From a virus (lineage: Duplodnaviria > Caudoviricetes), in the IMG/VR virus record IMGVR_UViG_3300021431_004524, positions 160,001 to 224,000 of that record: DNA of 64,000 nt; one strand, given 5' to 3'. Position 1 is the stretch's first letter. Every line of letters begins with the position of its first letter. The notes under the pieces were generated by a model. It saw nothing but the letters and a program-made list of their open reading frames with translations. It ran no database searches and had not been told where the DNA came from. Position numbers and translations under genes: made by a program. Positions 36,466 to 60,078 of the stretch are shown one piece after another.

Positions 36466-37152
36466 ATGGAAGAGTTTAATTTTCAGTCAAGCATGGGTTT
36501 GAATTTTGCTAATTTCGACCCATCAGCAATTCAGTCCTCAGAGACTATTAATGTGACGTTTATTATTGACCGTAGCGGTAGTATTTACGATTATGTAAAT
36601 GACCTCAATAACGTTCTTAACGATTTCTTGCATGAACTTCAGCGTTCACATGTTGCAGACCGTGTAATGATGCAGATTATTGAGTTTGACAGTAATGTAG
36701 AGGTGAAGTCTGCATTCCATCCTATCGCTGATGTAAAGGATTTCAATGTTCAGCCGGGTGGTTGTACGGCACTTTATGCCGCAATGCTTTCAGGTCTTGA
36801 AAATGCTGTAGCCTATAAGGAAGAGCAGGAAAATAACGGTCTTTCGTCCAAGTCACTTGTATTCCTTATCACTGATGGTTTGGAGAATTGTGGCGGTGAC
36901 GCAAATAAAGTAAAGGAGAAGATTAAGGAAATCTATAAGGATGAACAGAACTCATTCGCTTTCTCCATTATCATGTTTGGCCTTGGTGATGAAACCGGTT
37001 TTGAAAAGGCACGTGACGATATGGGCATCCGTCCCGAAATGATGGCAAAACTTGGCACAACGGCAAAGGAATTGCGTAAGATGGTTAATTTCATCTCAAG
37101 TTCCGTAAGTTCAAGTGCAAGTGGCGCAACAGTCAGTGCCGTTACGTTCTGA
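36466..37152 (+). CDS. TerY-like vWA domain protein
   Basis: MIDAS DRSGS, GG.TALY, LITDG; Ser-rich FISSSVSSSAS tail. Confidence 0.85.
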   Translation: MEEFNFQSSMGLNFANFDPSAIQSSETINVTFIIDRSGSIYDYVNDLNNVLNDFLHELQRSHVADRVMMQIIEFDSNVEVKSAFHPIADVKDFNVQPGGCTALYAAMLSGLENAVAYKEEQENNGLSSKSLVFLITDGLENCGGDANKVKEKIKEIYKDEQNSFAFSIIMFGLGDETGFEKARDDMGIRPEMMAKLGTTAKELRKMVNFISSSVSSSASGATVSAVTF

Positions 37153-37179
37153 TTATTGTTATTAACTCCTTTCCCCGTC

Positions 37180-37223
37180 GTTCATTGGTGTTATTCTTAA
37201 AAATGCACTGATGAACATTTTTT
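37180..37223 (+). terminator. Intrinsic terminator
   Basis: GTTCATTGGTG...CACTGATGAAC plus T-run. Confidence 0.7.
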
Positions 37224-37395
37224 ATTGATAAAAATGAACCGTTTTCCTATATATTATATATAATAAGGTATACAGATATGGATTTAAAGGACAAATTAAG
37301 GAAATTTGGTTATCATTATACAATGAATGGTTTAATATATAATCAATTTATTTTGAATATAACTCTTTTAATAATTGGTATGTTATAAAAAAAAA

Positions 37396-37536
37396 CGGAA
37401 CTACCTTTTTGACACAAAGTATCGTTGGAACACAAGAAAAATGAGCGAATCAGAGAGATTCGCCCATATGCTTGATAAGGTCATTGGACTTGTTCGTAAG
37501 TGGTCGGAGATTATAGTAGGCTTGGTTGCGGTTTAA
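37396..37536 (+). pseudogene. Remnant resembling the C-terminus of an IS1595-family transposase
   Basis: Frame reads RNYLFDTKYRWNTRKMSESERFAHMLDKVIGLVRKWSEIIVGLVAV*. Confidence 0.5.
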
Positions 37537-37928
37537 TCATAGTCTCCATATTCAAACAAATATGCAAGTTTTTCAAAGTTTTGTGAAGCATATCTGAATG
37601 CTTCATTATAGTTTTTGAATCTTTTAAAATCTATCCATCCTTTTTTACCGTCAAGTAAGCCACCCCCCTCACTTGGTTGCATTCCGTATTCTACATCTGG
37701 TAAGATATAAATTTCTTCAACTGGAGCAAGCAAGTTTTTCTCGACATAAAGCAAATAGCCTATTTCTTTACCTCTATATATAATAGTTTGTCTATGTCTA
37801 CCTTTACCCAAGTCTTGTGAATCATCATAACTAAATTCGTCTTCAGATTCTCTCAACACTCTACGTACTGATTCCATAACGATTCTATGTAAATCTGCTT
37901 CTGTCAATCTTATCAATTTCTTATTCAT
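37533..37928 (-). CDS. Jumbo-phage protein with KLIRLTE.DLHRIV.ESV N-terminal motif
   Basis: MNKKLIRLTEADLHRIVMESVRRVLRES. Confidence 0.75.
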   Translation of the reverse strand: MNKKLIRLTEADLHRIVMESVRRVLRESEDEFSYDDSQDLGKGRHRQTIIYRGKEIGYLLYVEKNLLAPVEEIYILPDVEYGMQPSEGGGLLDGKKGWIDFKRFKNYNEAFRYASQNFEKLAYLFEYGDYD

Positions 37929-38065
37929 ATTTAAATACGTATTTACTTTCTATAAATATCAGTAGATACATAAAAAATGCAGCCATTTCTGACTGTATTT
38001 ATAAATCAGTTGTGTCAACTGCTATATTATTGCCACCTTTTTTGGTAATTCCGAATTTATTGCTT

Positions 38066-38560
38066 CTAACACAGCACTTGGTCAGGTTGTACATAACCCT
38101 CATGAAGTGGCCGTCCTTCTGCTTTGAAATCTTGTGGATTATCGGTATTTAATACTCCGCTGTTATATTGCGGAACGTCTGTGATTGTCATTTTGTCACG
38201 GTATTTCCGTTCCATTTCATCCACGTATTCATTTTCCTTTAACTTCTGAAGGTTACAATATAGTCTGTCCTTGAAGTCATTTATAAGCATTGTAAGGTCT
38301 TCAGGCTCATCTACTGCCCATCTGTCCGTCTTTATGACAAGATAGTACCCTTGCTTGTTTAAAGCCTCTTCACGTGTGCATATTGCGTCCTCTGTCTCAA
38401 TAGTGATTGTCTGTACATCATCTTTTCCACCGTGATTTGTATCGTCTTGCTGAATGTATGTGATTGACATCTTTTCAATACCGACTTCGCATACCTTACC
38501 ATTATTCTCAGGTAATGCATAAGGCAAAATCTCAATTCTATAATCTCTATTGTTATCCAT
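38066..38560 (-). CDS. Hypothetical protein
   Basis: 164-aa ORF. Confidence 0.7.
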   Translation of the reverse strand: MDNNRDYRIEILPYALPENNGKVCEVGIEKMSITYIQQDDTNHGGKDDVQTITIETEDAICTREEALNKQGYYLVIKTDRWAVDEPEDLTMLINDFKDRLYCNLQKLKENEYVDEMERKYRDKMTITDVPQYNSGVLNTDNPQDFKAEGRPLHEGYVQPDQVLC

Positions 38561-38568
38561 TTTTTATA

Positions 38569-39444
38569 TTAATTAGTTTTTAACGCTTTTCTTAGTTTAT
38601 CCGTAACGTCAGGCAGATTATATTTCTCATATGTACCGTCAGGTTTAAGCCATATAAGCCTACGTGCAATCACTTTTAAACCTATATCTTCCATTGGTAT
38701 CTGATATGCTGATAATTGGCAAATATAGTGATTATATGCTTCATCTATCATATTATTGAATGGAGGTAACATACGTTGTTCGTTCTCACGTGCATAACTA
38801 TTTGTTAATGAAGCATTTGTCTTATAGTCTACTATGATGAAACCACTTTTTTTATCATCAGTGGGGTGTTTAAAATAGATTAATTTATCGAATGTCCCAC
38901 TATAGCCAAGTTCTTCATTATATACTCTTGCTTCTTCCAATACTGGGTATATACTGTCTATTGCGAACAAATCTTCATGAAATTTCAGTGCTGCTTCTTG
39001 TTTAGGACAAGCGGGGAAGAGATAGCCACACTCATATTGCATTTTAAAACGGTCATTAATCTCTTCTGGGTGTCCTTGGCAAAGATGACCAAGCATTTCG
39101 GCGTACTCATGGTGAATTGAACCACTTGTCGTAGCAAGATGATTGGTATATAGCCACTCTTCTTTAAGTTCTTCGGCAGGTATACCTAATTTAAGTGCTT
39201 TAAGTTCTGCTTTTTCATCCCAATCGACATAAGGCACGAATTTCTGTTCTATGATGGTAGTAACAGATGTGAGTTCTTTTTTAGTTCCATCTGGTTTGGG
39301 CAAAAAATATTTATGACCATCTTCAATAAACTCGATGTCCTTAAAACTTTCTATAATCTTATTTCTACCCTCTGTAACCTCAATTGGTTCCGGATTACGT
39401 TTGATACGTTCTAAGATATTATCAATTTTTAAAATACTTCTCAT
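38569..39444 (-). CDS. PD-(D/E)XK exonuclease-like protein
   Basis: H.Y...SVT, G...H, E, SGTFD, IVDYKT, QLSAY. Confidence 0.85.
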   Translation of the reverse strand: MRSILKIDNILERIKRNPEPIEVTEGRNKIIESFKDIEFIEDGHKYFLPKPDGTKKELTSVTTIIEQKFVPYVDWDEKAELKALKLGIPAEELKEEWLYTNHLATTSGSIHHEYAEMLGHLCQGHPEEINDRFKMQYECGYLFPACPKQEAALKFHEDLFAIDSIYPVLEEARVYNEELGYSGTFDKLIYFKHPTDDKKSGFIIVDYKTNASLTNSYARENEQRMLPPFNNMIDEAYNHYICQLSAYQIPMEDIGLKVIARRLIWLKPDGTYEKYNLPDVTDKLRKALKTN

Positions 39445-39448
39445 ATTG

Positions 39449-39480
39449 CAAATATACTACAAAAAAACGAGACTTCCAAA
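39449..39480 (-). promoter_or_regulatory. sigmaA-type promoter overlapping the ssb terminator
   Basis: TTTG (39480-39477), 20 nt, TATATTTG (39456-39449); AACGAGA/TCTCGTT stem plus T7. Confidence 0.75.
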
Positions 39481-39509
39481 GAAATCTCGTTCAATTTTTA
39501 ACTTTTTTT

Positions 39510-40046
39510 TTAGAATGGCAAATCATCCGTATCGTCATTGCCGTCCGTTGGCGGTGCAGCAGGTGCAGGCGCGGCTGTCTTTGCCGTAATCGGTGTTGTT
39601 GTCGGATTACGTGGCGTTGTCTTCTTTGCTGTTTGTGTTGTGTTTGCAGCGGCCTGCGGTGCTTGTGGTGCTGTTGTCGTTGTGGTGTTGTTGTTGGCAG
39701 TGCCCTCGGCATTCTGCGGATTACCGAAATTATTGTCAAACATAATATCATTGGCAGTTACCTCAAGTCCTGCTTCGGGCTTATTGGTCTGTGTACTGAT
39801 ATACGGACTTGCTTTCAAGTCACCAATTACCTCAATGGACTTACCCTTTGTCAGATATTGGGCAAGTTTTGCATGATTTGGATTAAATGAAGTTACACGG
39901 AACCAATATGTCTCACGTCCGTTGTTCTCAGCACTACCGGTATATTCGTTATTACCTACACGGAATTCAATAAACGGTGTACCATTCTTTGTTACTTTCT
40001 GCTCTGCATTTGCGGCCAAACGGCCTGATAGAAATAATTTTCTCAT
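39510..40046 (-). CDS. ssb: Single-stranded DNA-binding protein
   Basis: OB-fold L.GRL, T.W..V, YL.KG..I.V.G.L; disordered linker; DDLPF tip. Confidence 0.9.
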   Translation of the reverse strand: MRKLFLSGRLAANAEQKVTKNGTPFIEFRVGNNEYTGSAENNGRETYWFRVTSFNPNHAKLAQYLTKGKSIEVIGDLKASPYISTQTNKPEAGLEVTANDIMFDNNFGNPQNAEGTANNNTTTTTAPQAPQAAANTTQTAKKTTPRNPTTTPITAKTAAPAPAAPPTDGNDDTDDLPF

Positions 40047-40093
40047 TTTTGTTTAAATTTAATTAAATTTTACATATTTTTTTAACTCTGTTG

Positions 40094-40125
40094 CAAATAT
40101 ACTACAATTTCTTTAAAGTATGAAA
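40094..40125 (-). promoter_or_regulatory. sigmaA-type promoter (variant -33 TTTC)
   Basis: GTAG-TATATTTG-C at 40101-40094; TTTC 20 nt upstream. Confidence 0.65.
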
Positions 40126-40146
40126 TATAAAACTGTTAAAATTTGT

Positions 40147-41811
40147 TTATTTTGTATTTAAAACACTAACTTTACTGTGATTATATACTATAATACCACC
40201 ATTTGTGAATGATATGTTATAGTTATCCAATCCGGTTGTTTCGAAAGATACTACCTCATTAAGTGTTTCCTTATCCAAGAAATGAAGTTTATCGTCATTA
40301 TATAGTATGATGAATCTGTCATTGGATGAATATGGGTAAACATCGTCAATTTCCTTAGTTTTCATATCTCCGTACTTGTTGATAGTAAATAGGTAGTGTT
40401 TAACCTTATTTTTATTGTTTACGGTATATATACCGGTATTTTGGTTCTGTATTACATCAACAATTTTCTCATTTATAATATATGAAGATAACTTATTGTT
40501 TGAATTATAGAAAATAACCGAATTTTTACCAAGTACCTCATGTAAGCCATTGATTTTAATAAATGACTTGTGATATACGTTAGTTACGGTATATTTCACG
40601 TTATTAGCGTATATCTCGTCAAGATAGACAGTATACATCTTATCATCCTTTGTAATTACAATAAGGATATTCTCATATTGCTTGGCACAATGGACGTTTG
40701 TAAGTTGCAATGAGGTTATTTCCTCGAACTGCTTGCTTGAAGTGTTATAATGTCTTAGATGCCCATATCTGAGAGAATATATGTTCTTATCAGTCAGTAT
40801 GAGGTTTTCAGACTTATCCACGACACCGTAATTCATGATAATACCTTTACCATCTGCTGAATAAAGACGTTTCTCTGTATCTGTAATAACAGCGATATAT
40901 CTGTTCGATGAAATAACGTTTTTGACATTTCCACTGAACAGTTCCTTGATAAGAAGTTCATTAGACATGACAATTGCATCGAATTTAACGGTATCGACGT
41001 GTTTGCCGTTCATGTCTATAAGGAAACGCTTATTGAGTTGATATATCTCATAGAACATGTCCTTCAGTGCAGTATCGGATATGGGGGTATAGAACTTAGG
41101 CACCTTAATATTGCCAATTTCCTTTTCATTAAGAAGTGAAATATTGTTTATCTCCCTATCTTTCAACTTATCACGATATACGTTATGAATACCCTTATAT
41201 GGGTGCATACCGGTGAATAGGTTGAATATCATCACGGATAATGCAAAATAATCTGAGTTTTCACTTACAGTTCCATTGAAATAGAAGTCACGTACCTCTT
41301 CCAAAAGTTTGTCATTATGCTTATAGGATTTTGTCTGATAAGAGTCTACATCAATGAATTTAAGGTCAAGACGGTCATTGACCATGATATTGAATGGGTT
41401 AAGGTCTCCTATTACAATACCATTGTCATGTGCATTCTTAACACCTATGATTAGTTTTTCTGCAAGTTTCCTCTTATAGTCACTTGGAAGACCTCTTTTG
41501 TTTGCAAACATAGGAGAATATAGGGAATATATTGGATAATAGTCAGAAAGATTAAGTTCTTCCATAATATAACCATTATAATCCCCACTGACCGCAATTT
41601 GAGGCTTTACAAAGAGATTTCCATCAAGGGGTGATAACTCATCAATCTTTGTCTGAGAAAGTGCGTCAGAAGCCTTAAAATAGAGTTTTGCTACAAGTCC
41701 ACTACCATTTGAACCGGAGATTGGATAAATTGTACCCTCGCCACCGCTTCCAAGACTGTGGTTTTCATTAATTTGGTATCTATGGCCCTTAGTATCCTGT
41801 ATATTTATCAT
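40147..41811 (-). CDS. Ser/Thr protein kinase, YegI/TerY-P type
   Basis: LGSGGEG, VAKLY, H..GIVIGDLNPFN, FIDVDSY, SDYFAL, G.HPY. Confidence 0.85.
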   Translation of the reverse strand: MINIQDTKGHRYQINENHSLGSGGEGTIYPISGSNGSGLVAKLYFKASDALSQTKIDELSPLDGNLFVKPQIAVSGDYNGYIMEELNLSDYYPIYSLYSPMFANKRGLPSDYKRKLAEKLIIGVKNAHDNGIVIGDLNPFNIMVNDRLDLKFIDVDSYQTKSYKHNDKLLEEVRDFYFNGTVSENSDYFALSVMIFNLFTGMHPYKGIHNVYRDKLKDREINNISLLNEKEIGNIKVPKFYTPISDTALKDMFYEIYQLNKRFLIDMNGKHVDTVKFDAIVMSNELLIKELFSGNVKNVISSNRYIAVITDTEKRLYSADGKGIIMNYGVVDKSENLILTDKNIYSLRYGHLRHYNTSSKQFEEITSLQLTNVHCAKQYENILIVITKDDKMYTVYLDEIYANNVKYTVTNVYHKSFIKINGLHEVLGKNSVIFYNSNNKLSSYIINEKIVDVIQNQNTGIYTVNNKNKVKHYLFTINKYGDMKTKEIDDVYPYSSNDRFIILYNDDKLHFLDKETLNEVVSFETTGLDNYNISFTNGGIIVYNHSKVSVLNTK

Positions 41812-42332
41812 AGTGTTGGAAAATTATTATTTACCTCAATTGCAGTAAGCAATACAGCGTTATATATTGCACTAGTGATGTTTTCATCACGATTATCTGA
41901 ATTGAAATTACAGTTCATTATTTTAACCACATCAGGTAATTTCAGTTTTTTGTCAGTTTTAAGTGCAATTGCTATATAGATAGTACCGGGTTCGATACCA
42001 TCTACAGCATCAGGTCCTGCAAGTCCAGTAATTCCAATGGAAACATCTGTATCGAACAATTTCATAGCACCGGTTGCCATTTCCAACGCAACGTTTGCAC
42101 TAACAACATTAAAATCTTCAATTGTTGAATGCTTCACGCCAAGAAGTTTTTCTTTTGCTTCCGTCGCATATGTGATAACGCCACCGACTAAATATTTTGA
42201 TGCACCAGGTACTGATGAAATCCTATTGGCAATTCCACCGGCGGTACAACTCTCTGCCGTAGCAATTGTCAACTTCTTTTCTGTTAATAACTTGGCAAGT
42301 GTTTCTTGCGGTCTGTTAAAATCAATATTCAT
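41808..42332 (-). CDS. pncC: NMN deamidase (CinA C-terminal/PncC)
   Basis: ATAESCTAG, PGAS, Y..EAK, VS...A..MA.GA, GITG.AGP, G..YIA. Confidence 0.88.
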   Translation of the reverse strand: MNIDFNRPQETLAKLLTEKKLTIATAESCTAGGIANRISSVPGASKYLVGGVITYATEAKEKLLGVKHSTIEDFNVVSANVALEMATGAMKLFDTDVSIGITGLAGPDAVDGIEPGTIYIAIALKTDKKLKLPDVVKIMNCNFNSDNRDENITSAIYNAVLLTAIEVNNNFPTL

Positions 42333-43402
42333 AATTTTATACCGTGCTTTTTAAGTTGCTTAATAACATCTTCAACGGTAATTAATGTAATGTTTTCCTT
42401 TTCGTCAAACTTAATACCGTACTTGTTTTCCAAATCCATCATTAAGCCGACAGTATCGAGACTATCGAACCATAAATCATTTACCAATGAACTTGAACGT
42501 CTGATGGGATACTTTTTATCGACATATTTCTTGAAAATATCTTCGAGTTCTGCCGGTACCGCCTCATCTGGTCGTACAGCATCGATGTCAAGGATTTTAT
42601 CCAACGCTAAGAATCTCTCTTTACCTTCCTTACCCATAATTGGGAATGCGGGGTGAATATTCCATACGGTTCTATCATACTCAGTGTTAAGTTTTTCATT
42701 GAAATAATGCTCTTTTTCCCTATAGACAAATCTTCCGTACTTCTTACCGTCATCATAGGTATTCCAATCGATACCCTTTTCGTCAAGAAGCAATTTAATT
42801 TGTTCATCGCTATCAAGTCCTTCCAACTGCTTATGCGAAAGCCATGTCTGTGCTGTCTGTTGCTTTGAATTACGAATACAATCTATTTGTCTCCACAGAT
42901 AATAACTATATACATCATTGAAATTATCGACTGACCACGCCTTGCAATCAAATTCAGCAAGTTTAAGGTCAAGAATCATCTGTTTCAAATCAGCATTTGA
43001 ACAAGGTGTATCACAAAGGTCTGCAATTACCAATTGATTGAATTTTGCCGTTGCCATAGAAGGCACAATAGACAGAATCTTGGTAAGTCTGTTACCGAAA
43101 AACGAACAAGTTGTCTCATTGTCAAAATCAGTCAAGACAAACGTTATTTCATCACTCTGTACATATGCGAATTTACAACCTTCTACATATCGGCAAACAT
43201 ATTTTGCAACCTCATTCATTATATTGATGAACTTATCATCAAACGGTTTTTCATACTTGTTCTTGATAAGGCGCGAGAAGCAATGGCCGTCAATTGCTAT
43301 CATTGTATACCCTTTTAACGGTAGTCTTAAATCGGTTTTTGCTCTTAATTCAGTCATTCTCTGTTTGAGAGACTTTTCCGTTGAATCCATCTTCTTTTCC
43401 AT
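42329..43402 (-). CDS. Thg1-like tRNA(His) guanylyltransferase / 3'-5' polymerase fused to an acyl carrier protein domain
   Basis: DG..F, YVQSDEI, FD.K and WRQ.DC.RN motifs; C-terminal DL..DSLD.V..MM.LE..YGI. Confidence 0.85.
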   Translation of the reverse strand: MEKKMDSTEKSLKQRMTELRAKTDLRLPLKGYTMIAIDGHCFSRLIKNKYEKPFDDKFINIMNEVAKYVCRYVEGCKFAYVQSDEITFVLTDFDNETTCSFFGNRLTKILSIVPSMATAKFNQLVIADLCDTPCSNADLKQMILDLKLAEFDCKAWSVDNFNDVYSYYLWRQIDCIRNSKQQTAQTWLSHKQLEGLDSDEQIKLLLDEKGIDWNTYDDGKKYGRFVYREKEHYFNEKLNTEYDRTVWNIHPAFPIMGKEGKERFLALDKILDIDAVRPDEAVPAELEDIFKKYVDKKYPIRRSSSLVNDLWFDSLDTVGLMMDLENKYGIKFDEKENITLITVEDVIKQLKKHGIKL

Positions 43403-43535
43403 AATTGTTTAATATTTTTAACCATAATTCACAATACTTAATGTGCAATACACTAAGACTGAGTTCTTATTATACCAGTTCTGATATAATTCCTTGAATT
43501 TTTGGCTCATTTATATCACATCGGGTATAAATCTT

Positions 43536-43913
43536 TTAATCATTATTCTTTATTTCTATTAACACAAATTTATCACATAATTTCTCATAATATTTCACTG
43601 CCTCTTCATATGTGCCAAAATATTCTACATCATACTCGCCATCGATGTAGTGAATGAGCACTCTTGGCGCATGGAACACCTTTCCATCCTCAATGATGTT
43701 TCCTTTTTCGATTAATTCCTTGGCCGTGAATGTTATTACGAAATCATCACCCATATAGATGTCATCCTCATAGTATTTCTTCTTAAACCAGCCACTATAG
43801 TAAACCTCGCCTTTTTTATGGACTAATGAGAAATTCCACTCGTTTAGTTTTTTGTCGAATACTTCAAGTTTCTTAATCGAACTGAAATTAATTGATTTCC
43901 TTTCTTCTTTCAT
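43536..43913 (-). CDS. Hypothetical protein
   Basis: 125-aa ORF. Confidence 0.65.
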   Translation of the reverse strand: MKEERKSINFSSIKKLEVFDKKLNEWNFSLVHKKGEVYYSGWFKKKYYEDDIYMGDDFVITFTAKELIEKGNIIEDGKVFHAPRVLIHYIDGEYDVEYFGTYEEAVKYYEKLCDKFVLIEIKNND

Positions 43914-43915
43914 GA

Positions 43916-44323
43916 CTAATTTTGACCTAATAATGTTGGGTTAAATACTATAATGTAGAATGTTATCAAAATCTGAATAATGTGGATAAGTTGGTCTGTC
44001 CAAAGGTTAATCTTAAATCTGTTTGCCTTGAGGTCATCCACATATGCATGAACACCTGCATTAATAATGAAGAATTTGATAAGTAGCCAATTAGGAACAT
44101 CCATCAAGAACATTGGCGGAATCAATATCATAATTGACCATGTGAAACCATGCATCAATAAGGCACTGATATAGTCACCTTGATAATTTTTGAAATCGAC
44201 ATTGTTTTTCTTACATTCCTCTACCCACCATGACTTACATTTCAGTTGAGAAAGACAAATTGGCTGGAGTACAAAGTCACATATAAGATGCATCCAACCC
44301 ATTAATAAAATTGTTTTCACCAT
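43916..44323 (-). CDS. DUF3307-like membrane protein
   Basis: H...DF.LQ, H, H...D..K, DQ..H; start moved to ATG 44323 because the TTG at 44347 lies in the promoter. Confidence 0.8.
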   Translation of the reverse strand: MVKTILLMGWMHLICDFVLQPICLSQLKCKSWWVEECKKNNVDFKNYQGDYISALLMHGFTWSIMILIPPMFLMDVPNWLLIKFFIINAGVHAYVDDLKANRFKINLWTDQLIHIIQILITFYIIVFNPTLLGQN

Positions 44324-44344
44324 ACTTTTTTCATCTTTATAGTG

Positions 44345-44376
44345 CAAAGTTACTAAAAATTCGCGATAAAAACAAA
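44345..44376 (-). promoter_or_regulatory. sigmaA-type promoter
   Basis: TTTG (44376-44373), 20 nt, TAACTTTG (44352-44345). Confidence 0.75.
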
Positions 44377-52788: not shown

Positions 52789-52804
52789 ATATACTTATTT
52801 TCTG

Positions 52805-52836
52805 CAAAGATACTACAAAAATTTGAAATAACCAAG
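52805..52836 (-). promoter_or_regulatory. sigmaA-type promoter (variant -33 CTTG)
   Basis: TATCTTTG (52812-52805); CTTG 20 nt upstream. Confidence 0.7.
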
Positions 52837-52855
52837 TGATTAACAATATTTAACC

Positions 52856-53728
52856 TCAATGATTATATCTGAATTGGTATTCTTGTCCTACTTGGATGCA
52901 ATTATTAGGTATAGTATCTGTAGTGAATACACCATGTTCATAGTTTGGGTCATAAAATAGATGCACAGTATCCGGTAAACGGTCTGTATGTATACCAAGC
53001 AAAGTATATTTTCCTTTTATATCATCTTTAAGATTTTTCAATGATAAGTCTTCTCCCAAATCATACAAGTCATTCATTGTTACATTACTTTTAACAAGAT
53101 ATATTCGTGGTGGATAACTAAAGAACATATTATCGTTTCTTGGTATTAAACCGGTTGTCATGATACTTGGAATATTTTCAGATGGGGTGAAGTGATAAAA
53201 GTATTTGTTTTCTTTCTTGATTGTTTCCGTCTCATCTTTTTGCGTAATCGGTTCAAATCGCATCTGTAATAAAGTATGACCATCCTTTTCAAGTGGTTTC
53301 TCGACAGATAAGAAATAACCCATTTTAGACATGTCATTAACAATAAGGTCATGGTTTTCACCAATATCAGCAATTAACAAATATATTGCGATACCATTAA
53401 ATGCCTCGACCTTATAAAACTGTTCATCAGCAAAATGATAAGTACCACGCAAGTGTTTAATAACATCGTCAGCATCAAATATTTGACCATAAGTTTCTTT
53501 AATGTATTGTTTTCCTTCTTTAATTAATGGGTTTCCATATACATAATTTTGACCAAAATCACGATAGTCCCTATTAATATTTTCCATTAAATCAGAAGAA
53601 AAACTATCGATATTGAAGATAACGGCATCATCAGAAATTGCTTCTGTTAATCTATCTGCTTCATTTTTAGTCATGTGTTTCCCCATTCGTAATGATAAGG
53701 AAAACATTTCATTTAATTTTTTATTCAT
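52856..53728 (-). CDS. Putative ADP-ribosyltransferase-fold protein (Tpt1-C/DarT-like)
   Basis: YH.T...N..SI...GL.P...RIYL...LL.I...T...IP. Confidence 0.6.
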   Translation of the reverse strand: MNKKLNEMFSLSLRMGKHMTKNEADRLTEAISDDAVIFNIDSFSSDLMENINRDYRDFGQNYVYGNPLIKEGKQYIKETYGQIFDADDVIKHLRGTYHFADEQFYKVEAFNGIAIYLLIADIGENHDLIVNDMSKMGYFLSVEKPLEKDGHTLLQMRFEPITQKDETETIKKENKYFYHFTPSENIPSIMTTGLIPRNDNMFFSYPPRIYLVKSNVTMNDLYDLGEDLSLKNLKDDIKGKYTLLGIHTDRLPDTVHLFYDPNYEHGVFTTDTIPNNCIQVGQEYQFRYNH

Positions 53729-53778
53729 ATAATATTATATTTTTCGTAAATATACTATTTTTAATTCATATAACAAAT

Positions 53779-53810
53779 AAAAAATGGGAACTTTATAAAA
53801 AAATTCCCAT
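53779..53810 (-). terminator. Intrinsic terminator
   Basis: ATGGGAA...TTCCCAT plus T6 on the minus strand. Confidence 0.65.
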
Positions 53811-53832
53811 CTTCTATAAATAACTTTAAAAG

Positions 53833-55632
53833 TTATGCCTCATCAGTTGTATCACCATAACCCTCAGCAGCCTCAATATCAACAGCTCCGGAATCATAGA
53901 CAAGGGCTTCTTTAAGTGTAAAACTTACACTCTTTAATTTCTCAGCACGAAGTACAGTATCACCGGCTTTACGAAGAACAAATCCTTCTCTTGGTGAATC
54001 CGGGAAGTTCTTACAGAGTGGTTCCGGTTCCTCCATGCCAAAATGTTCCTTATCGTTCTTCATACGTTCCAACAAAGCCTCATGCCAATGGTTCTCAGTG
54101 TCCAAATCGGGATAAAGTTCTTCAAGAGTACCGTGATAAAGTATATCGATTGGGTGGATACGCTTCCAATTATCATTACCTTCTGCTTTCATCCTTTCAA
54201 TTAACTTGTTAGTCCAATCAAGAACCTCAGATACCTCCCACTCTTTCTTAGTTCCATCTTCATTAGTAGTTGTAATACGATAGAACATGACAATATTCTC
54301 ACCTTCAGGGCATCCATAATCGTAAGCCTTCTGAATCATTGATTGTTCACCAGTAAGATAGCCACAGATTTCACCATATACTGTCATACCTTCATCAAGA
54401 TATGGATAGATAATATCACCATACTCAGTCCACAAGTCAGCATTATAGTAACCACCAGTTACATCTTGATTGATGTATTTATTCTTAATTACCTTACGTG
54501 AAGCATATACAGGGCCATATACGACCTCACTATCAGTAATTCTAAGTGATTTGAACAGATGTGTGAAATCAACAAACTTGTTAAACGTTCTCTTGAAGAA
54601 CGGAAGTTTAATTGGTTGATTTACATGAAGTTTGCCAATGATACAACTTGTTCCGTGTAGTTTAACACTAATATCTACAATATCATCCGGTTTGAAATAC
54701 TGAATATCTTTATTCAACTGGCTTGTGCTGTAGTGGAAGAAGAATTCGCCATCAATCATGCGGTCAAATCTCTTAATTGTTTTCTGTGCCTTATTCTTAT
54801 TACTCTTCTTCTGAGTTTCCGCCGGCATAGGTGGAATATATACCTTAACGAACAAATCACCGTTTACAGTGTCGAACTCTTGGCCAACGTATGCTTCAAT
54901 ATCTTCCATCGTAATAGATGAGTCATATTTAATCAAATCCTCTGGTGCAAACAAAACACCAAATGAAGGGGTATTTCTAAGAGTAAGACAACGAACGCGG
55001 CCATACTTGTTGAAGAAGCCACAATGTTTCTTAACCTCTGCAATAATGTCAGCACCAGACTTAACAATATCCTCTACTTCTTTCTTCAAGTTGGTATAGG
55101 TTGTGGTCTTTGCGATTGCACGTGCTGTATAATCGTCAGCCTGCTTCTGCAAAGTATCAATTTCAGCCTTCTTGATACCGTACTCTTCAGATGAACTATC
55201 AAGAGACTCAAGGTCTTTTGTCATCTTCTTAATCTGTTTGTTAATCTTAGCAGCCTTCTTGGTGAGATTATCCATTGAAGCCTTTACGTTCTTTGCCTCA
55301 TTACGGATAGCATCAGCCTTTGCCTTGATTGGTTCATAAGGCTTATAGATTTCATCAACTTCTTCCTTATTGGCATTCTTCTCACGGCAACTAATCTCAT
55401 AAAGGTTATTAACGGAAAGGAATTTCTCATTAAGTTGCGTCTCATTAGCGGCATATATCATAATGTCGCCTTCCTTTACTTGGTCTTTACGTACCACAAT
55501 CTGTGTACCAAACACATCTGTTTTAGCAAGGAAATCAGAACCCTCAATTGGGGTAAGTTCACCAACACGTACAATAGCGGCACTATATTCACTATTGAAT
55601 GCTTCACTTTTAGTAAATACGTTTTTTTCCAT
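53833..55632 (-). CDS. Rnl2/DRB0094-type RNA ligase with a coiled-coil insertion
   Basis: N-terminal OB-like domain; KLHGTS, YGEICG, FYRIT, REGFV, KLKS..F. Confidence 0.8.
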   Translation of the reverse strand: MEKNVFTKSEAFNSEYSAAIVRVGELTPIEGSDFLAKTDVFGTQIVVRKDQVKEGDIMIYAANETQLNEKFLSVNNLYEISCREKNANKEEVDEIYKPYEPIKAKADAIRNEAKNVKASMDNLTKKAAKINKQIKKMTKDLESLDSSSEEYGIKKAEIDTLQKQADDYTARAIAKTTTYTNLKKEVEDIVKSGADIIAEVKKHCGFFNKYGRVRCLTLRNTPSFGVLFAPEDLIKYDSSITMEDIEAYVGQEFDTVNGDLFVKVYIPPMPAETQKKSNKNKAQKTIKRFDRMIDGEFFFHYSTSQLNKDIQYFKPDDIVDISVKLHGTSCIIGKLHVNQPIKLPFFKRTFNKFVDFTHLFKSLRITDSEVVYGPVYASRKVIKNKYINQDVTGGYYNADLWTEYGDIIYPYLDEGMTVYGEICGYLTGEQSMIQKAYDYGCPEGENIVMFYRITTTNEDGTKKEWEVSEVLDWTNKLIERMKAEGNDNWKRIHPIDILYHGTLEELYPDLDTENHWHEALLERMKNDKEHFGMEEPEPLCKNFPDSPREGFVLRKAGDTVLRAEKLKSVSFTLKEALVYDSGAVDIEAAEGYGDTTDEA

Positions 55633-55664
55633 TTTCTTAATTCTTTTAATTTCTAATTTTGATG

Positions 55665-55696
55665 CAAATTTAATACTTTATTTCCACTCCACCAAA
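55665..55696 (-). promoter_or_regulatory. sigmaA-type promoter
   Basis: TTTG (55696-55693), 20 nt, TAAATTTG (55672-55665). Confidence 0.7.
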
Positions 55697-55726
55697 TATT
55701 TTTTGTTAAAAATACTAAAACCTTTA

Positions 55727-56407
55727 TCATTCTAATAATTTGCATTCTTCAGGTGTATACTTTTCATGCAGTTTATCCATCCACCATTTAGTCTTAAACT
55801 TTACTTTTGGTAATCTCTGACCTTTCATAAGCGTTGTTCTTCTACATACAACTCCTTCTTTTACATTTGGATATTTACAGTCAGGTTGCGTCCAATCATT
55901 ATCTTGTATTGATTTGATGAAATCCTTTGTCAGTTTACCTCTATATATTAATTCAGGTTGAATAATCTCCTTATGAGAATAGAATAGTTCCTGTAACGGT
56001 TTTAATTCAATAAAGCCTTTCTTCTTGATAAAGACATCAATTAATGCAAGTTTCAATTCATCTCCTGGTACATGAACACCCGCAAATGAATTTTCACCAT
56101 ACCATTCAAAATAGAACGTCACTTCATCAACGCCTGTAAATAGTCCTTTCTTCTTTGAGTTATCAGTTACAATCTGAGATAGCAATTGTGGGTAACAAGA
56201 GTTCTTGAACCATTTAACAGCATCGCCAAACTGTTCATCGGTCTCATCAAAGACACGTTTTCTTGAACCGAATTGGTCGAATTTCTTTGTCTTTGGTGAA
56301 TACTTTATACAAATGTTCTGCCCGTCTAACTTGTTATAGGCTGCAACCTCTTCACCTAATAACGTACCGTCATCTTGTATACGGTTTATTGTGTCGTAAT
56401 GTCTCAT
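55727..56407 (-). CDS. Minimal Rnl2-like RNA ligase (adenylation domain)
   Basis: KLDGQN, GSR, FEWYG, LIDV, EGVV, K.K. Confidence 0.8.
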   Translation of the reverse strand: MRHYDTINRIQDDGTLLGEEVAAYNKLDGQNICIKYSPKTKKFDQFGSRKRVFDETDEQFGDAVKWFKNSCYPQLLSQIVTDNSKKKGLFTGVDEVTFYFEWYGENSFAGVHVPGDELKLALIDVFIKKKGFIELKPLQELFYSHKEIIQPELIYRGKLTKDFIKSIQDNDWTQPDCKYPNVKEGVVCRRTTLMKGQRLPKVKFKTKWWMDKLHEKYTPEECKLLE

Positions 56408-56411
56408 TCTA

Positions 56412-57068
56412 TCAAAGTTTATCTTTTACAAAATAATATGCTTTATCATAATCCTTATTATCGGGATATAGTTCAATCGCCTTATCAATTAGGTTATCAA
56501 GTTTTTTACCCCAATGATTATAAAATTCATGCAATAAGAAATGTTTAGTAGGATGGCATTCATCAAAAACGTCTACCATTGTATCATCAAACGACATAAT
56601 ACTTGGTATATCATGCTCTATTACGTATTTCTTAACACGTTCGATGTCATTATCCCATTCTCTCATATGAAGTCTTACATCTTGGTATATTTGACGATAG
56701 AAAAACTCATTTATAAAGCCGTTGTATTCCTGTATAAACTGATTTGTCAATTCAATTAACTCAGGATAATGGTCATATTCCTTATCCAACTCTTCTTGTG
56801 TCGTATTAGGATAATATGTTTTGATAAATTCACAAACATCAGTATAGTTGTACTTTTTCTTTGCAAATTTATTAAAGACATTAACTTCTACATCCTTTGG
56901 TATATCAACACCTTCATTCCAAGCAGTTTGTTCTTCCTCATTACCAAACATACCGGGGTATAAATTCAATGTGTTTATATCAGGTGGTGTAGAACTGAAA
57001 CAGAACCAACCGTTTTCCTTTGTTTGTGCAAACCAAAAACCACCACTTTTAGTTTTATATATTTTCAT
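56412..57068 (-). CDS. Hypothetical protein
   Basis: 218-aa ORF. Confidence 0.65.
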   Translation of the reverse strand: MKIYKTKSGGFWFAQTKENGWFCFSSTPPDINTLNLYPGMFGNEEEQTAWNEGVDIPKDVEVNVFNKFAKKKYNYTDVCEFIKTYYPNTTQEELDKEYDHYPELIELTNQFIQEYNGFINEFFYRQIYQDVRLHMREWDNDIERVKKYVIEHDIPSIMSFDDTMVDVFDECHPTKHFLLHEFYNHWGKKLDNLIDKAIELYPDNKDYDKAYYFVKDKL

Positions 57069-57072
57069 GGTA

Positions 57073-57486
57073 TTACTCGTACTTATCCTTTAAACGTTTT
57101 AACTCAGAAAGCTCCTTTTTTTCAAGTTCTTTCTTTTCTTGTTCTGCTAACTGCTTATTTCTTGTTATGGCATCAGAGACTTGTTCATCAAGCGGTTTGT
57201 TAAGGTCTATTTCAATTACTATGTAATCACCATCATCATGATAGCCTTTAATAAATTTTATACTGTTATTAGTATACTCAACATCACACCAGTCAAAAAA
57301 CTTATCGGGGTATTTCTCATAATGCCATTGACAATTTTGAAACATTTCTTTCCATCCATTTATCATTTTTAATTGACTAAGAGTTTCACGGGCAACTCTT
57401 TCAATCTCTTTCTCTTTATTTTCCATTTCGGCATTTAACTTATTGCATTCCCTAATAAGTTTCAATGCCTTTCTTTGCATTTCCAT
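57073..57486 (-). CDS. Hypothetical protein
   Basis: 137-aa ORF; EL.RLK.KYE tail. Confidence 0.65.
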   Translation of the reverse strand: MEMQRKALKLIRECNKLNAEMENKEKEIERVARETLSQLKMINGWKEMFQNCQWHYEKYPDKFFDWCDVEYTNNSIKFIKGYHDDGDYIVIEIDLNKPLDEQVSDAITRNKQLAEQEKKELEKKELSELKRLKDKYE

Positions 57487-57497
57487 ATTATCTCTTT

Positions 57498-58322
57498 TTA
57501 AAATCTTAAATCATATATATCAAAATTACCGTTTCTCCACTTATCAAGCATCACAAACTGTATACCATTAATATACTCTTGGTTATGAAAATGATAATGA
57601 CCATAAAACCATTTATAAATCGGATGACCATCTTCAATCAGTTTATTGTATATATCATCCATCACCTTACGTTCAGCATCAATATCCGCTTCAAGTGCGG
57701 GGTCTTCCGTTAACCAGTATTGAATACCCTCCTTTGTTATTGGTTTTGCAAACGATGGGCAGGTATGTGTTGCTACAATGTCAATTTTTATACCACTTTC
57801 TTTTAATTCATTTAACGCCTCTTCATCATAAACAGGTGCTTCATCAGGCCAATATCCCTTTGGGCAATACAAATACGCCTCATCAATGCTACAGCCATGA
57901 TATATAGCATATTTCATAGCATTTTCCTTATATTTTACAAGGCGATATGTCCTATCGATGGATGTTGCTCCGCCCACGCAAAGAATATTATGTGTCGGTG
58001 TTTGAATGACAGTATAATCAGGTATTGCCTTGAAATACTTACGGTTTATTTTCTTACCGTTAAAATATTCCTTTGAGTCATGATTTCCATGAATGAATAT
58101 ACACTCATTATTGAATCGTGCGGCTGTTTTGTTAAGTTTATTAAATATATTCTTATAATGTTGTTCTTTTTCAAACCCGAAACCCACGTCTCCGCAGAAT
58201 AAGTATGTGGTGTCAGTAAATTCTGTACGTTTCATTAACCCATTTATGGAATTAAATTCTCCGTGCATGTCACCGACAAAGCATAATCCAGATTTATTTG
58301 TCTTTATGATGTTAAGTACCAT
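57498..58322 (-). CDS. Calcineurin-like metallophosphoesterase
   Basis: GDMHG, GDVG, GNHD, GGA.SID, TH..P, GHYH. Confidence 0.9.
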   Translation of the reverse strand: MVLNIIKTNKSGLCFVGDMHGEFNSINGLMKRTEFTDTTYLFCGDVGFGFEKEQHYKNIFNKLNKTAARFNNECIFIHGNHDSKEYFNGKKINRKYFKAIPDYTVIQTPTHNILCVGGATSIDRTYRLVKYKENAMKYAIYHGCSIDEAYLYCPKGYWPDEAPVYDEEALNELKESGIKIDIVATHTCPSFAKPITKEGIQYWLTEDPALEADIDAERKVMDDIYNKLIEDGHPIYKWFYGHYHFHNQEYINGIQFVMLDKWRNGNFDIYDLRF

Positions 58323-58549
58323 TAAATTTCCTCTACAGTAATCTTTACTTTCTTATTAAGTAATCCTTCATTGAATATTTTATGTGTCCTGCTTGGGTCA
58401 ACTGATGTAATTGTTACATCTACGGTTTCTTCATCATCAGGTTCTACATTATTATCCAATACAAATCTTGTCATTTTAAGATTTCTCTCATTATCAACAG
58501 AAAGCAAATCATTTACGTTTCCTTCTAGTTCTAAAATTATTTTACTCAT
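58322..58549 (-). CDS. Hypothetical protein
   Basis: 75-aa ORF; TATATTTG element upstream at 58586-58579. Confidence 0.6.
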   Translation of the reverse strand: MSKIILELEGNVNDLLSVDNERNLKMTRFVLDNNVEPDDEETVDVTITSVDPSRTHKIFNEGLLNKKVKITVEEI

Positions 58550-58586
58550 TTTACTTAAATTTATTTATATTTCGACAGCAAATATA

Positions 58587-59303
58587 CTATTTTTTCCCCA
58601 AATAAAGAAGGGAATACTGTTTAAAAAGTGTTAAATCATCCGGTGTGATATGTGGAAGATAAATCGGGGTGAAGAATACTTCAGCATTCTTTAAGAATTG
58701 CTTCCATATAGCAGTCTTAATCCTATTTACATTAGCCCTTGTTATTACATCTTTTTGAAATTTTCTTAAATTCTTTGGAATATCCTTATCTTCAACAACT
58801 TTATATCCACCCACACATGTCATGTTCTGAATTTTGAAATTAGAATCGACATACTGATAATAGTAATCTTCATCAGTGGATGCAGCACCAATAAGCAATC
58901 CTATTTCATTATCGGTTTTAAAATCATCAAAGGTAACTATTTTTCCACCATCCTTTACTAACTTATTTCTAATCAAGAAAAAATTAGATTTTTCATCATG
59001 ATGGTCATAGTGATATTTAAAATCTGTTATGATATTCCTTCTTCTCCATGCAAGAAACATATCATAATTGACAATATCTGTTTTAATTTCAGATAATTCA
59101 ACATCCCATTCACTATCCATAAATAACGTATCTTCATCGACCCAATATGAGGTGAATATATTACGATAGAAATACACCTTATTATCCTTGAAACTACGAT
59201 AAAAGGCAAATATCATATAATCGTTATGAATGCCTATTAGCATTTTACCGTCAGTTATCTTATCGAATAAGGGTCTGAAATCATTTAACTTCATCTTTGC
59301 CAT
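58587..59303 (-). CDS. Hypothetical protein
   Basis: 238-aa ORF. Confidence 0.65.
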   Translation of the reverse strand: MAKMKLNDFRPLFDKITDGKMLIGIHNDYMIFAFYRSFKDNKVYFYRNIFTSYWVDEDTLFMDSEWDVELSEIKTDIVNYDMFLAWRRRNIITDFKYHYDHHDEKSNFFLIRNKLVKDGGKIVTFDDFKTDNEIGLLIGAASTDEDYYYQYVDSNFKIQNMTCVGGYKVVEDKDIPKNLRKFQKDVITRANVNRIKTAIWKQFLKNAEVFFTPIYLPHITPDDLTLFKQYSLLYLGKK

Positions 59304-60078
59304 TAACTGTGTCCTCCTCTATACATTTTATTTTAATCATAGTGAAATCATCACCATTAAGCATCACTTCATTACCGGTATCTGAACATTTTCCTTTAAC
59401 GACTACATTGTATAACCTTTGTAAAGGCATTTTCTGATATTTCTCTTCACATGTATCTGTTTCAAAGAATATCTTCTTGGCATCCTCATTCTTGCTTGCA
59501 CCATATTGAGATACGAAACTCTCCAAGCCATCAGATGAAATACATATTTCCTTACAAATACTAAATACGCCTTTTTCTAATCTGCAATAGTTGTATAAAT
59601 AACTATCGAAATCTGCCGGTTTGACCGTTGATAAATACCAAACGGCATTTCCATTAGGGTCATGTACGTTTTCAAAGAGCCTTGTGTCTAATATACTGCG
59701 TCCATAGCACCCATCACCGGCCAGACAGATTGTATATTTCTCATTTTCCTTGTCGATGAACAAAAGCACTACAGTACTGAGCATTTCTTCATTGACCTTA
59801 TAGTTAAGAGACCATATCTTTCTGTTTAATTCCCTTAGAATGTTCTCTACTACGTTGGTTGCATAGATTGATGTATATTCCTCCAAGTTCTCACATATTT
59901 CCCTAAGTTTATACTTATGCATAGTAGAGGCGAAATGAGAGTCTACACCGGATGAACACCCATCAAATACTGCCGCAACAATGAATTTATCATTCTCATA
60001 CACAAGATAGTCATCCTCACAATGTAAATCGTGAAGACGGCCTTTGCTTATAAGTGTGTCTATCTTATATTCTTTCAT
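59281..60078 (-). CDS. PP2C-family protein phosphatase (YegK/TerY-P type)
   Basis: G..H...CED, V.DGCSS, ST, GDG, SDG and DD.T motifs. Confidence 0.85.
   Translation of the reverse strand: MKEYKIDTLISKGRLHDLHCEDDYLVYENDKFIVAAVFDGCSSGVDSHFASTMHKYKLREICENLEEYTSIYATNVVENILRELNRKIWSLNYKVNEEMLSTVVLLFIDKENEKYTICLAGDGCYGRSILDTRLFENVHDPNGNAVWYLSTVKPADFDSYLYNYCRLEKGVFSICKEICISSDGLESFVSQYGASKNEDAKKIFFETDTCEEKYQKMPLQRLYNVVVKGKCSDTGNEVMLNGDDFTMIKIKCIEEDTVNGKDEVK

What the first reader, a model, noticed from the sequence alone, without database searches (positions are those of the whole stretch)
36466..60078. Complete but dispersed TerY-P-like triad carried by a phage
Seen: TerY-like vWA (36466), YegI-type kinase (40147..41811) and YegK-type PP2C (59281..60078), spread over 24 kb on both strands. 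The vWA gene is adjacent to the PncA-like gene, and the kinase overlaps pncC, which overlaps Thg1-ACP. Established: the vWA-PP2C-kinase operon (TerY-P, E. coli yegLKI-like) is a bacterial anti-phage system. Inference: the phage uses it against competing phages or to defuse host TerY-P. Separate promoters would allow kinase and phosphatase to be timed independently, and the link to NAD enzymes suggests a shared pathway.
Basis: partly seen in the sequence, partly recalled or inferred. Interest (0 to 1): 0.75.

Follow-up and report, generated by a model that had tools for sequence, protein, structure and literature searches.

The report
Scattered nicotinamidase-linked kinase switch in phage
A giant T4-like phage carries, scattered over 24 kb, all four genes of a conserved bacterial cassette (a nicotinamidase, a vWA adaptor, a PP2C phosphatase and a kinase fused to a beta-propeller) that in bacteria sits under the NAD-breakdown sensor NrtR, so it looks like a phosphorylation switch tied to NAD+ recycling rather than the known TerY-P anti-phage system.

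Summary
The vWA (36466-37152 +), Ser/Thr kinase (40147-41811 -) and PP2C (59281-60078 -) genes exist, one copy each in the 235.6 kb held.

They are not a chance trio. In distant huge-phage relatives and in 28 of 60 informative bacterial loci, they lie side by side as vWA-PP2C-kinase, always preceded by the PncA-like gene. The unit is therefore a four-gene cassette. Four gene trees agree, and all four window genes keep their catalytic residues with dN/dS of 0.02-0.06.

The cassette is TerY-P-like but a distinct branch:
- the kinase carries a C-terminal beta-propeller, not a zinc ribbon, OB-fold or membrane segment;
- a true nicotinamidase is a fixed partner;
- bacterial copies often sit behind NrtR and sometimes KptA/Tpt1.

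The phage lineage took it from Bacteroidota, dropped NrtR and scattered it stepwise. Cytophagales genomes show the same split.

The anti-phage or anti-TerY-P reading has no support. Function is inferred: a phospho-switch on nicotinamide removal and NAD+ salvage.

I found no description of this cassette in the papers I could search. This scan has already reported the same cassette on other DNA several times. What this window adds is the dispersal series.

The parts
35668..36450 (+). Nicotinamidase (PncA-like, 260 aa), the fixed fourth member of the cassette
   Evidence: Triad D9/K152/C202 and metal ligands D52/H54/H118 are invariant in the family. The family profile hits nicotinamidases first in the PDB. 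AF2 pLDDT is 96.6 and the top 11 Foldseek hits are nicotinamidases. It lies below the NCBIfam PncA equivalog cut-off (44 vs 174 bits). dN/dS is about 0.04.
36466..37152 (+). TerY/YegL-like vWA protein (228 aa) with an intact MIDAS motif and a conserved Ser-rich C-terminal tail ending in Phe
   Evidence: PF00092, E 3e-8. YegL 31% identity, E 1e-8. D35-x-S37-x-S39, T101 and D137 are conserved, as is the tail F209-x-S211-x-S213...F228. dN/dS 0.022.
40147..41811 (-). Ser/Thr kinase (residues 1-260) fused to a C-terminal beta-propeller (285-554)
   Evidence: PF00069. Invariant G23, G24, K42, D136, N141, D154, D156. YegI E 3e-16. AF2 pLDDT 89.7. Foldseek top hits are LRRK2 (kinase plus WD40) and the Vps18 and Rae1 propellers. 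dN/dS 0.045.
59281..60078 (-). Cognate PP2C phosphatase (265 aa), displaced 17.5 kb upstream of the kinase on the same strand
   Evidence: PF13672, E 8e-8. Invariant D22, D39-G40, D122, D183, D243-D244. Sister to the cassette PP2C of L006 (100% support) inside the Bacteroidota-plus-phage clade. dN/dS 0.057 against L003.
41808..42332 (-). PncC/CinA NMN deamidase, translationally coupled upstream of the kinase (context gene)
   Evidence: PF02464, E 1e-43. 4-nt overlaps on both sides. Same order in L004.
42329..43402 (-). Thg1-like enzyme fused to an ACP domain, first gene of the Thg1-PncC-kinase-SSB unit (context gene)
   Evidence: PF04446, E 1e-24, plus the PHROG acyl carrier protein family.
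39510..40046 (-). SSB gene downstream of the kinase, followed by a terminator-like hairpin at 39465-39492
   Evidence: PF00436. Same kinase-SSB order in L004 and L005. Hairpin found.
5347..5898 (+). KptA/Tpt1 NAD+-dependent RNA 2'-phosphotransferase, a recurrent neighbour of the cassette in bacteria and phages
   Evidence: PF01885, E 9e-39. phrog_5470. KptA lies next to the cassette in 8 bacterial loci and in L001 and L015.

Best explanation
The window holds a scattered but complete and functional copy of a conserved four-gene cassette: a nicotinamidase, a vWA adaptor, a PP2C phosphatase, and a Ser/Thr kinase fused to a beta-propeller.

Shown:
- The four genes are co-inherited.
- They were taken by a huge T4-like phage lineage from Bacteroidota. 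A different phage took the cassette separately from Proteobacteria.
- The ancestral order was nicotinamidase-vWA-PP2C-kinase. The order was broken stepwise in this lineage, while every gene stayed under strong purifying selection with its catalytic residues intact.
- In bacteria the cassette often lies directly behind NrtR, the ADP-ribose-sensing repressor of NAD genes, and sometimes behind KptA.

Inferred:
- The module is a phosphorylation switch on nicotinamide removal.
- The propeller senses a signal.
- The kinase phosphorylates the conserved Ser-rich tail of the vWA protein and PP2C resets it.
- The vWA protein, through its MIDAS site, controls its constant neighbour, the nicotinamidase.
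- In the phage, now free of NrtR, the nicotinamidase and the co-transcribed PncC push nicotinamide and NMN into the host's deamidated NAD+ route. This would help replication when NAD+ is being broken down, for example by NAD-depleting defences or by the phage's own NAD-consuming KptA.
For: Adjacency in relatives:
- LR756500.1 has the four genes in a row.
- L007 is near-compact and L006 has all four within 6.6 kb.
- 28 of 60 informative bacterial loci are collinear, and 38 of 60 have nicotinamidase-vWA directly before the kinase.

Co-inheritance:
- Four congruent trees place the window genes in one Bacteroidota-plus-phage clade with 98-100% support. L015 groups with Pseudomonadota.
- The 63% relative keeps its PP2C in the same RNA-repair array.

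Function retained:
- dN/dS is 0.02-0.06 for all four genes.
- Catalytic and MIDAS residues and the vWA tail are conserved.
- The nicotinamidase assignment holds by residues, profile and fold.
- The kinase carries a beta-propeller.

NAD context:
- NrtR is present in 18 bacterial loci, and directly upstream of the nicotinamidase in 14 of 35 loci with enough sequence.
- nrtR-pncA operons are an established NAD regulon (PMC2330246).
- No phage sequence held here encodes NrtR.
Against: - No experiment links any of the four proteins to each other or to NAD+ levels.
- The substrate of the kinase, the ligand of the propeller and the partner of the vWA protein are all guesses.
- The held 235 kb (about 60% of the genome) has no NMNAT and no NAPRTase/Nampt, so the phage would depend on host enzymes.
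- PP2C-less bacterial variants exist.
- Dispersal could mean the parts have uncoupled.
- Fifteen bacterial loci have the kinase alone.
- dS is saturated for three of the four pairs, so those ratios are approximate.
- A later check within this scan gave a similar bold reading low odds.
Confidence: 0.45

Rival explanations
1. First reader's view. The set is a TerY-P anti-phage or superinfection-exclusion system that the phage uses against competing phages, or a decoy that defuses a host TerY-P system.
For: TerY-P-like triads have been shown to defend as stand-alone systems (Gao et al. 2020, as summarised in PMC11090510). The core domains are related to YegL, PphC and YegI. Relatives carry defence and counter-defence genes nearby: a Tad2-like gene between vWA and nicotinamidase in L004, and SIR2 and GmrSD in L005.
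Against: The kinase lacks the OB-fold or zinc ribbon of the described TerY-P forms. The constant partner is a nicotinamidase, and bacterial copies sit in NrtR/NAD contexts next to housekeeping genes such as the ATP synthase operon. The trees follow phyla rather than showing the patchy spread of defence islands. PADLOC could not be used as a test.
Confidence: 0.12
2. The module serves NAD-consuming RNA-end chemistry rather than NAD+ supply. The nicotinamidase removes the nicotinamide released by KptA/Tpt1 (and relieves product inhibition), while the kinase and phosphatase regulate tRNA/RNA repair enzymes.
For: KptA is next to the cassette in 8 bacterial loci and is present in three phage lineages. 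In the window the kinase is co-transcribed with Thg1-ACP. The PP2C sits inside an array with an RNA ligase, an HD plus P-loop kinase and a metallophosphoesterase, and that array is conserved in the 63% relative. L005 has an RNA ligase and Thg1 upstream of the kinase.
Against: Most bacterial cassettes have no RNA-repair neighbour. NrtR, not KptA, is the commonest neighbour. The compact phage operons (L001, L007) have no RNA-repair gene inside them.
Confidence: 0.18
3. The parts have uncoupled in this lineage. The kinase acts on host proteins for takeover, the PP2C counters host kinase-based signalling or defence, and nicotinamidase-vWA works alone.
For: The genes now lie in three separate places with different neighbours. 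PP2C-less cassettes and split genomes exist in bacteria. The propeller diverges about twice as fast as the kinase domain.
Against: All four genes are kept in every phage relative that could be checked (window, G001, L006, L007, L001, L015). All four evolve under similar strong constraint. All 10 split Cytophagales genomes also keep the special nicotinamidase, so physical splitting does not imply loss of joint function.
Confidence: 0.2

Closest known systems
TerY-P triad (TerY-like vWA + PP2C + Ser/Thr kinase; Anantharaman, Iyer and Aravind 2012, and the anti-phage TerY-P of Gao et al. 2020, both as summarised in PMC11090510)
   Same: The same three domain types occur in the same ancestral gene order, vWA-PP2C-kinase. 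The MIDAS motif is intact. The likely logic is a phosphorylation switch.
   Different: The kinase C-terminus is a beta-propeller of about 270 aa, not a zinc ribbon or an OB-fold. A nicotinamidase is a fixed fourth gene. The context is NrtR, KptA and NAD genes rather than Ter, McrBC or CoCoNuT. No defence activity has been shown for this branch. In the window the genes are not an operon.
E. coli yegL-pphC(yegK)-(yegJ)-yegI
   Same: The kinase domain is 31% identical (E 3e-16) and the vWA protein 31% identical (E 1e-8). The PP2C is related at profile level. The Ser-rich vWA tail core is shared.
   Different: [quoted passage not shown] There is no nicotinamidase or NrtR beside the E. coli genes.
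NrtR-controlled pncA operons of NAD salvage (Rodionov et al. 2008, PMC2330246)
   Same: In many bacterial loci an nrtR gene lies directly upstream of a nicotinamidase gene.
   Different: That paper lists no vWA, PP2C or kinase genes. The nicotinamidase here is a divergent, longer subfamily. The phage copies have no NrtR.
Phage NAD+ reconstitution pathways NARP1, NARP2 and NARP3 (bioRxiv 10.1101/2024.02.11.579819; PMC13464706)
   Same: These are phage-encoded enzymes acting on NAD+ breakdown products, and the likely selective pressure is NAD-depleting immunity.
   Different: NARP1-3 use Adps/Namat, Nampt/NMNAT or PnuC/NadR-like enzymes. None includes a nicotinamidase, PncC or a kinase switch. 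The held phage DNA has no NMNAT or Nampt/NAPRTase.

Membership tests
TerY-P triad | TerY-like vWA protein with a MIDAS motif | tested here: met
   PF00092. D-x-S-x-S, T and D conserved. YegL E 1e-8.
TerY-P triad | PP2C-type phosphatase with metal-binding aspartates | tested here: met
   PF13672. Invariant D22, D39, D122, D183, D243 and D244.
TerY-P triad | Ser/Thr kinase with a catalytic core | tested here: met
   PF00069. Invariant G-loop, K42, D136, N141, D154 and D156.
TerY-P triad | The three genes form one operon | tested here: not met
   In the window they lie at 36466, 40147 and 59281 on two strands. The feature is met in relatives L001, L007 and L013 and in 28 bacterial loci.
TerY-P triad | Kinase C-terminus is a zinc ribbon (CoCoNuT-linked type) or an OB-fold (Gao defence type) | tested here: not met
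   The AF2 model shows an all-beta propeller at 285-554. The best matches are the LRRK2 WD40 and the Vps18 and Rae1 propellers. The definition comes from PMC11090510.
TerY-P triad | Recognised by defence-system HMMs (PADLOC) | tested here: inconclusive
   No TerY-P hit, but E. coli YegL, PphC and YegI also get none in this copy.
TerY-P triad | Protects cells against phage | not testable with these tools
   Needs plaque assays.
E. coli YegL-PphC-YegI set | YegI-type kinase with a two-pass membrane C-terminal part | tested here: not met
   The kinase domain matches, but the C-terminal part is a soluble propeller. The YegI topology comes from bioRxiv 10.1101/819920.
Nicotinamidase (PncA/Pnc1) | Asp-Lys-Cys triad and Asp/His/His metal site | tested here: met
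   D9, K152 and C202, plus D52, H54 and H118, are invariant.
Nicotinamidase (PncA/Pnc1) | Nicotinamidase fold, closer to nicotinamidases than to other isochorismatase-family enzymes | tested here: met
   The top 7 profile hits and the top 11 Foldseek hits are nicotinamidases.
Nicotinamidase (PncA/Pnc1) | Scores above the NCBIfam PncA equivalog cut-off | tested here: not met
   44 bits against a cut-off of 174. It is a divergent, longer subfamily.
Nicotinamidase (PncA/Pnc1) | Hydrolyses nicotinamide to nicotinate | not testable with these tools
   Needs an enzyme assay.
NrtR regulon | nrtR gene adjacent to the cassette | tested here: not met
   There is no NrtR in the 235 kb or in any phage locus. 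The feature is met in 18 bacterial loci.
NrtR regulon | NrtR operator upstream of the cassette | not tested
   No motif search was done here.
NARP1/2/3 phage NAD+ reconstitution | Adps+Namat, Nampt+NMNAT or PnuC+NadR-like gene pair | tested here: not met
   No PF01467 and no PF04095 match in the held record. The record is only about 60% complete.

The most novel reading that the evidence does not exclude
The four genes form a signal-gated nicotinamide-removal device that bacteria place under the NAD-breakdown sensor NrtR. Huge phages captured it at least twice as a regulated, deamidating route to rebuild NAD+ during NAD-depleting immunity. That would be a fourth, kinase-switched kind of phage NAD+ counter-defence, and the first assigned output for a TerY-P-like phospho-switch.
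Probability: 0.2. Interest if true: 0.8.

Novelty: new variant of a known kind. Interest (0 to 1): 0.62.

Why it matters
TerY-P-like vWA/PP2C/kinase triads are widespread, and some defend against phages, but what they act on is unknown. This branch has a constant enzymatic partner (a nicotinamidase) and a constant regulatory context (NrtR). That gives a concrete, testable output for the switch.

For phage biology, it would add a regulated, host-dependent route to the known ways phages restore NAD+.

The dispersal series also shows that a tightly conserved operon can be pulled apart over evolutionary time, in a phage and in Cytophagales, with every part retained. This is a caution for operon-based system finders.

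Tried and rejected
- PADLOC scan for TerY-P. Rejected as a test because the E. coli positive control also fails.
- Megablast of the region against annotated phages found no match.
- Single-protein scans of viral contigs found only one close PP2C relative. Alignment-based and identity-based look-ups were needed instead.
- The sigma-70 promoter scan was at chance level, 44 found against 39.8 expected, so it says nothing about separate promoters.
- PHROG scan of the large left-hand ORFs gave no structural names. Phage nature was shown by a T4-type Gp23 hit instead. The Terminase_6C search was negative, and the record is incomplete.
- Records behind L004-L007 could not be searched whole, so the place of the PP2C in the 87% relative is unknown.
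- Literature searches for the nicotinamidase-linked cassette found nothing.
- I considered that the PP2C might be an unrelated phosphatase. I rejected this from its tree position.
- I considered that the Iso protein might be some other amidase. This is unlikely given the residues, the profile and the fold.


Full report
**What is in the window**

ORF listing and Pfam scans confirm the three genes at the stated coordinates:
- a 228-aa vWA protein at 36466-37152 (+);
- a 554-aa protein with an N-terminal protein-kinase domain at 40147-41811 (-);
- a 265-aa PP2C_2 phosphatase at 59281-60078 (-).

The vWA gene follows an isochorismatase-family gene (35668-36450) after 15 nt. The kinase gene overlaps CinA/PncC by 4 nt, and PncC overlaps a Thg1-ACP fusion gene by 4 nt.

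The window is bases 160001-224000 of a single 235,653-bp IMG/VR virus record that CheckV estimates to be about 60% complete. The record carries a T4-type major capsid gene cut by its first bases, so it is a truncated huge T4-like phage. Each of the three families occurs once in the record.

**The trio is part of a four-gene cassette**

Translated searches of annotated phages found the best relatives of all three proteins side by side on one strand of the 462-kb uncultured phage LR756500.1. ORF calling and BLAST show the order there is isochorismatase-like, vWA, PP2C, kinase, with a 4-nt PP2C/kinase overlap.

The kinase has about 90 full-length relatives of 26-98% identity, many on contigs of 344-400 kb. 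Their contexts form a series:

| Locus | Kinase identity | Arrangement |
|---|---|---|
| L007 | 32% | the four genes with two small inserts |
| L006 | 49% | PP2C, kinase, nicotinamidase-vWA on one strand within 6.6 kb, small genes interleaved |
| L005/L016 | 63% | kinase-SSB ... nicotinamidase-vWA on one strand; PP2C elsewhere |
| L004 | 87% | as in the window: Thg1-PncC-kinase-SSB facing an inverted nicotinamidase-vWA pair |

In the window, PP2C and kinase are still on the same strand and in the ancestral order, but 17.5 kb apart.

The 63% relative keeps its PP2C (51% identity) on another contig. There it sits in an array syntenic with the window's (HD plus P-loop kinase, PP2C, a 75-aa gene, metallophosphoesterase, a 599-aa gene). 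The scattered layout is therefore old and stable.

**Bacterial origin and context**

A scan of one genome per prokaryote species with the kinase alignment returned 80 loci. These came from Bacteroidota (25), Acidobacteriota (23), Armatimonadota (14), Pseudomonadota (7), Myxococcota (4) and others.

I used profiles built from the module proteins. Of the 60 loci with at least 2.6 kb upstream of the kinase:
- 28 are collinear nicotinamidase-vWA-PP2C-kinase;
- 6 are nicotinamidase-vWA-kinase with no room for a PP2C;
- 4 have a gap between vWA and kinase;
- 4 are KptA (divergent) with PP2C-kinase;
- 3 are PP2C-kinase only;
- 15 have the kinase alone.

A Nudix-type NrtR gene is present in 18 loci. 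It lies directly upstream of the nicotinamidase in 14 of the 35 loci with enough sequence. KptA/Tpt1 is present in 8. One example, L013, has precomputed Pfam hits to NUDIX and WHD_NrtR and sits beside an ATP synthase operon.

In all 10 Cytophagales or Microscillaceae genomes where the kinase lacks these neighbours, exactly one cassette-type nicotinamidase (E about 1e-114) lies elsewhere. It was still paired with the vWA gene in two of the four I inspected. Bacteria therefore show the same split as the phage.

**Co-inheritance**

Trees of the kinase, nicotinamidase, vWA and PP2C proteins (IQ-TREE, quick search, LG+G4; SH-aLRT support) agree:
- The window groups with L004, L005/L016 and L006 (96-100%).
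- That group lies inside a clade of Bacteroidota plus the phages L001 and L007 (98-100%).
- Phage L015 groups with Pseudomonadota in three trees, which implies a second capture.
- The window's displaced PP2C is sister to the cassette PP2C of L006 (100%).

The caveats are that these are quick searches without the mixture model, the phage rows have unusual composition, and the trees are unrooted.

**Are the parts functional?**

- **Kinase.** The glycine loop, K42, D136, N141, D154 and D156 are invariant.
- **vWA.** It keeps the MIDAS residues and a strongly conserved Ser-rich C-terminal tail that ends in Phe. E. coli YegL shares the core of that tail.
- **PP2C.** Its metal-binding aspartates are invariant.
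- **Isochorismatase-family protein.** It keeps the nicotinamidase triad and metal site. Its family profile hits nicotinamidases first among solved structures. Its model (pLDDT 96.6) matches eleven nicotinamidases before anything else. It does score below the NCBIfam PncA equivalog cut-off.
- **Selection.** dN/dS against close relatives is 0.02-0.06 for all four genes. The PP2C pair (dS 0.43) is the only unsaturated one.

**How it compares with TerY-P**

The core domains are related to E. coli YegL, PphC and YegI.

The kinase model (pLDDT 89.7) has a C-terminal all-beta domain whose best matches are the LRRK2 WD40 and stand-alone seven-bladed propellers. According to PMC11090510, CoCoNuT-linked TerY-P kinases end in a zinc ribbon, and the TerY-P-like modules shown to defend end in an OB-fold. 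[quoted passage not shown]

The propeller is part of the whole family, since the profile matches end to end in nearly all loci. It diverges about twice as fast as the kinase domain.

This is a distinct branch, defined by the propeller, the nicotinamidase partner and the NrtR/KptA context. The PADLOC test could not decide anything, because the E. coli control fails in this copy.

**Mechanism**

Shown: a co-inherited, selected, four-gene set with an NAD-linked context in bacteria and no NrtR in phages.

Inferred: a phospho-switch in which the propeller senses a signal, the kinase and PP2C write and erase phosphate on the vWA tail, and the vWA protein controls the adjacent nicotinamidase. In the phage, the nicotinamidase and PncC would feed nicotinamide and NMN into the host's deamidated NAD+ route.

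The held DNA has no NMNAT or NAPRTase, so the host would have to complete the pathway. The phage also encodes KptA, which consumes NAD+ and releases nicotinamide. Its kinase and PP2C sit among RNA-repair genes. A role in NAD-dependent RNA-end chemistry is therefore a serious rival.

**Literature and earlier notes**

nrtR-pncA operons are known (PMC2330246), but that paper mentions no vWA, PP2C or kinase genes. NARP1-3 do not include these genes. Searches combining the cassette's terms found nothing.

This scan's earlier notes describe the same NrtR-linked four-gene cassette on other DNA several times, in Patescibacteria, cyanobacteria and huge phages. One later check gave the bold functional reading low odds. 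I reached the four-gene, NrtR-linked and propeller conclusions before reading those notes, and they agree. What this window adds:
- the stepwise dispersal series;
- the parallel split in Cytophagales;
- the KptA link;
- the conserved vWA tail.

**Verdict**

It is a new variant of a known kind. The function is inferred only.

Noticed in passing
L004:16220-16552 (-): In the 87%-identity relative, a Tad2-like gene (PF11195, the anti-Thoeris sponge family) is inserted exactly between the vWA and nicotinamidase genes. The window has only a 15-nt spacer there.
   Followed up: no
window 42329-43402 (-): Thg1-like enzyme fused to an acyl-carrier-protein domain, translationally coupled to PncC and the kinase. 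L005 has Thg1 without the fusion, followed by an RNA ligase.
   Followed up: partly
window 53833-63134 (-): The PP2C is embedded in an RNA-repair-like array conserved in the 63% relative: HD plus AAA_33 kinase, radical SAM protein, PP2C, metallophosphoesterase, RNA ligase, and a 599-aa protein with a PHA02142 OB-fold.
   Followed up: partly
L005:854-4261 (+): SIR2, GmrSD and CTP_transf_like (NMNAT-like) genes lie upstream of the kinase in the 63% relative. These are defence-like and NAD genes carried by a phage.
   Followed up: no
L006:15195-19464 (+): A DUF2828/DUF7788 gene and an RVT_1 reverse transcriptase lie just downstream of the cassette in the 49% relative.
   Followed up: no
L016 (CATEWF010000001.1, 83.5 kb): A phage-like contig nearly identical to Logan contig L005 is binned in a 'Mycoplasmatota' MAG. 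This is either a binning artefact or a host hint that conflicts with the Bacteroidota signal of the trees.
   Followed up: no
G000:C1:28-735 (outside the window): A T4-type Gp23 capsid gene is cut by the start of the record, and IMG/VR labels the record 'provirus'. The label is probably an artefact for a T4-like phage fragment.
   Followed up: partly
window 15627-22904 (+): A 2425-aa ORF with only one weak PHROG match of unknown function.
   Followed up: no
L059, L060, L065, L071, L082, L087, L089: Bacterial cassettes in which the vWA gene abuts the kinase gene with no PP2C. This is a phosphatase-less variant found in Acidobacteriota, Myxococcota and one Pseudomonadota MAG.
   Followed up: partly
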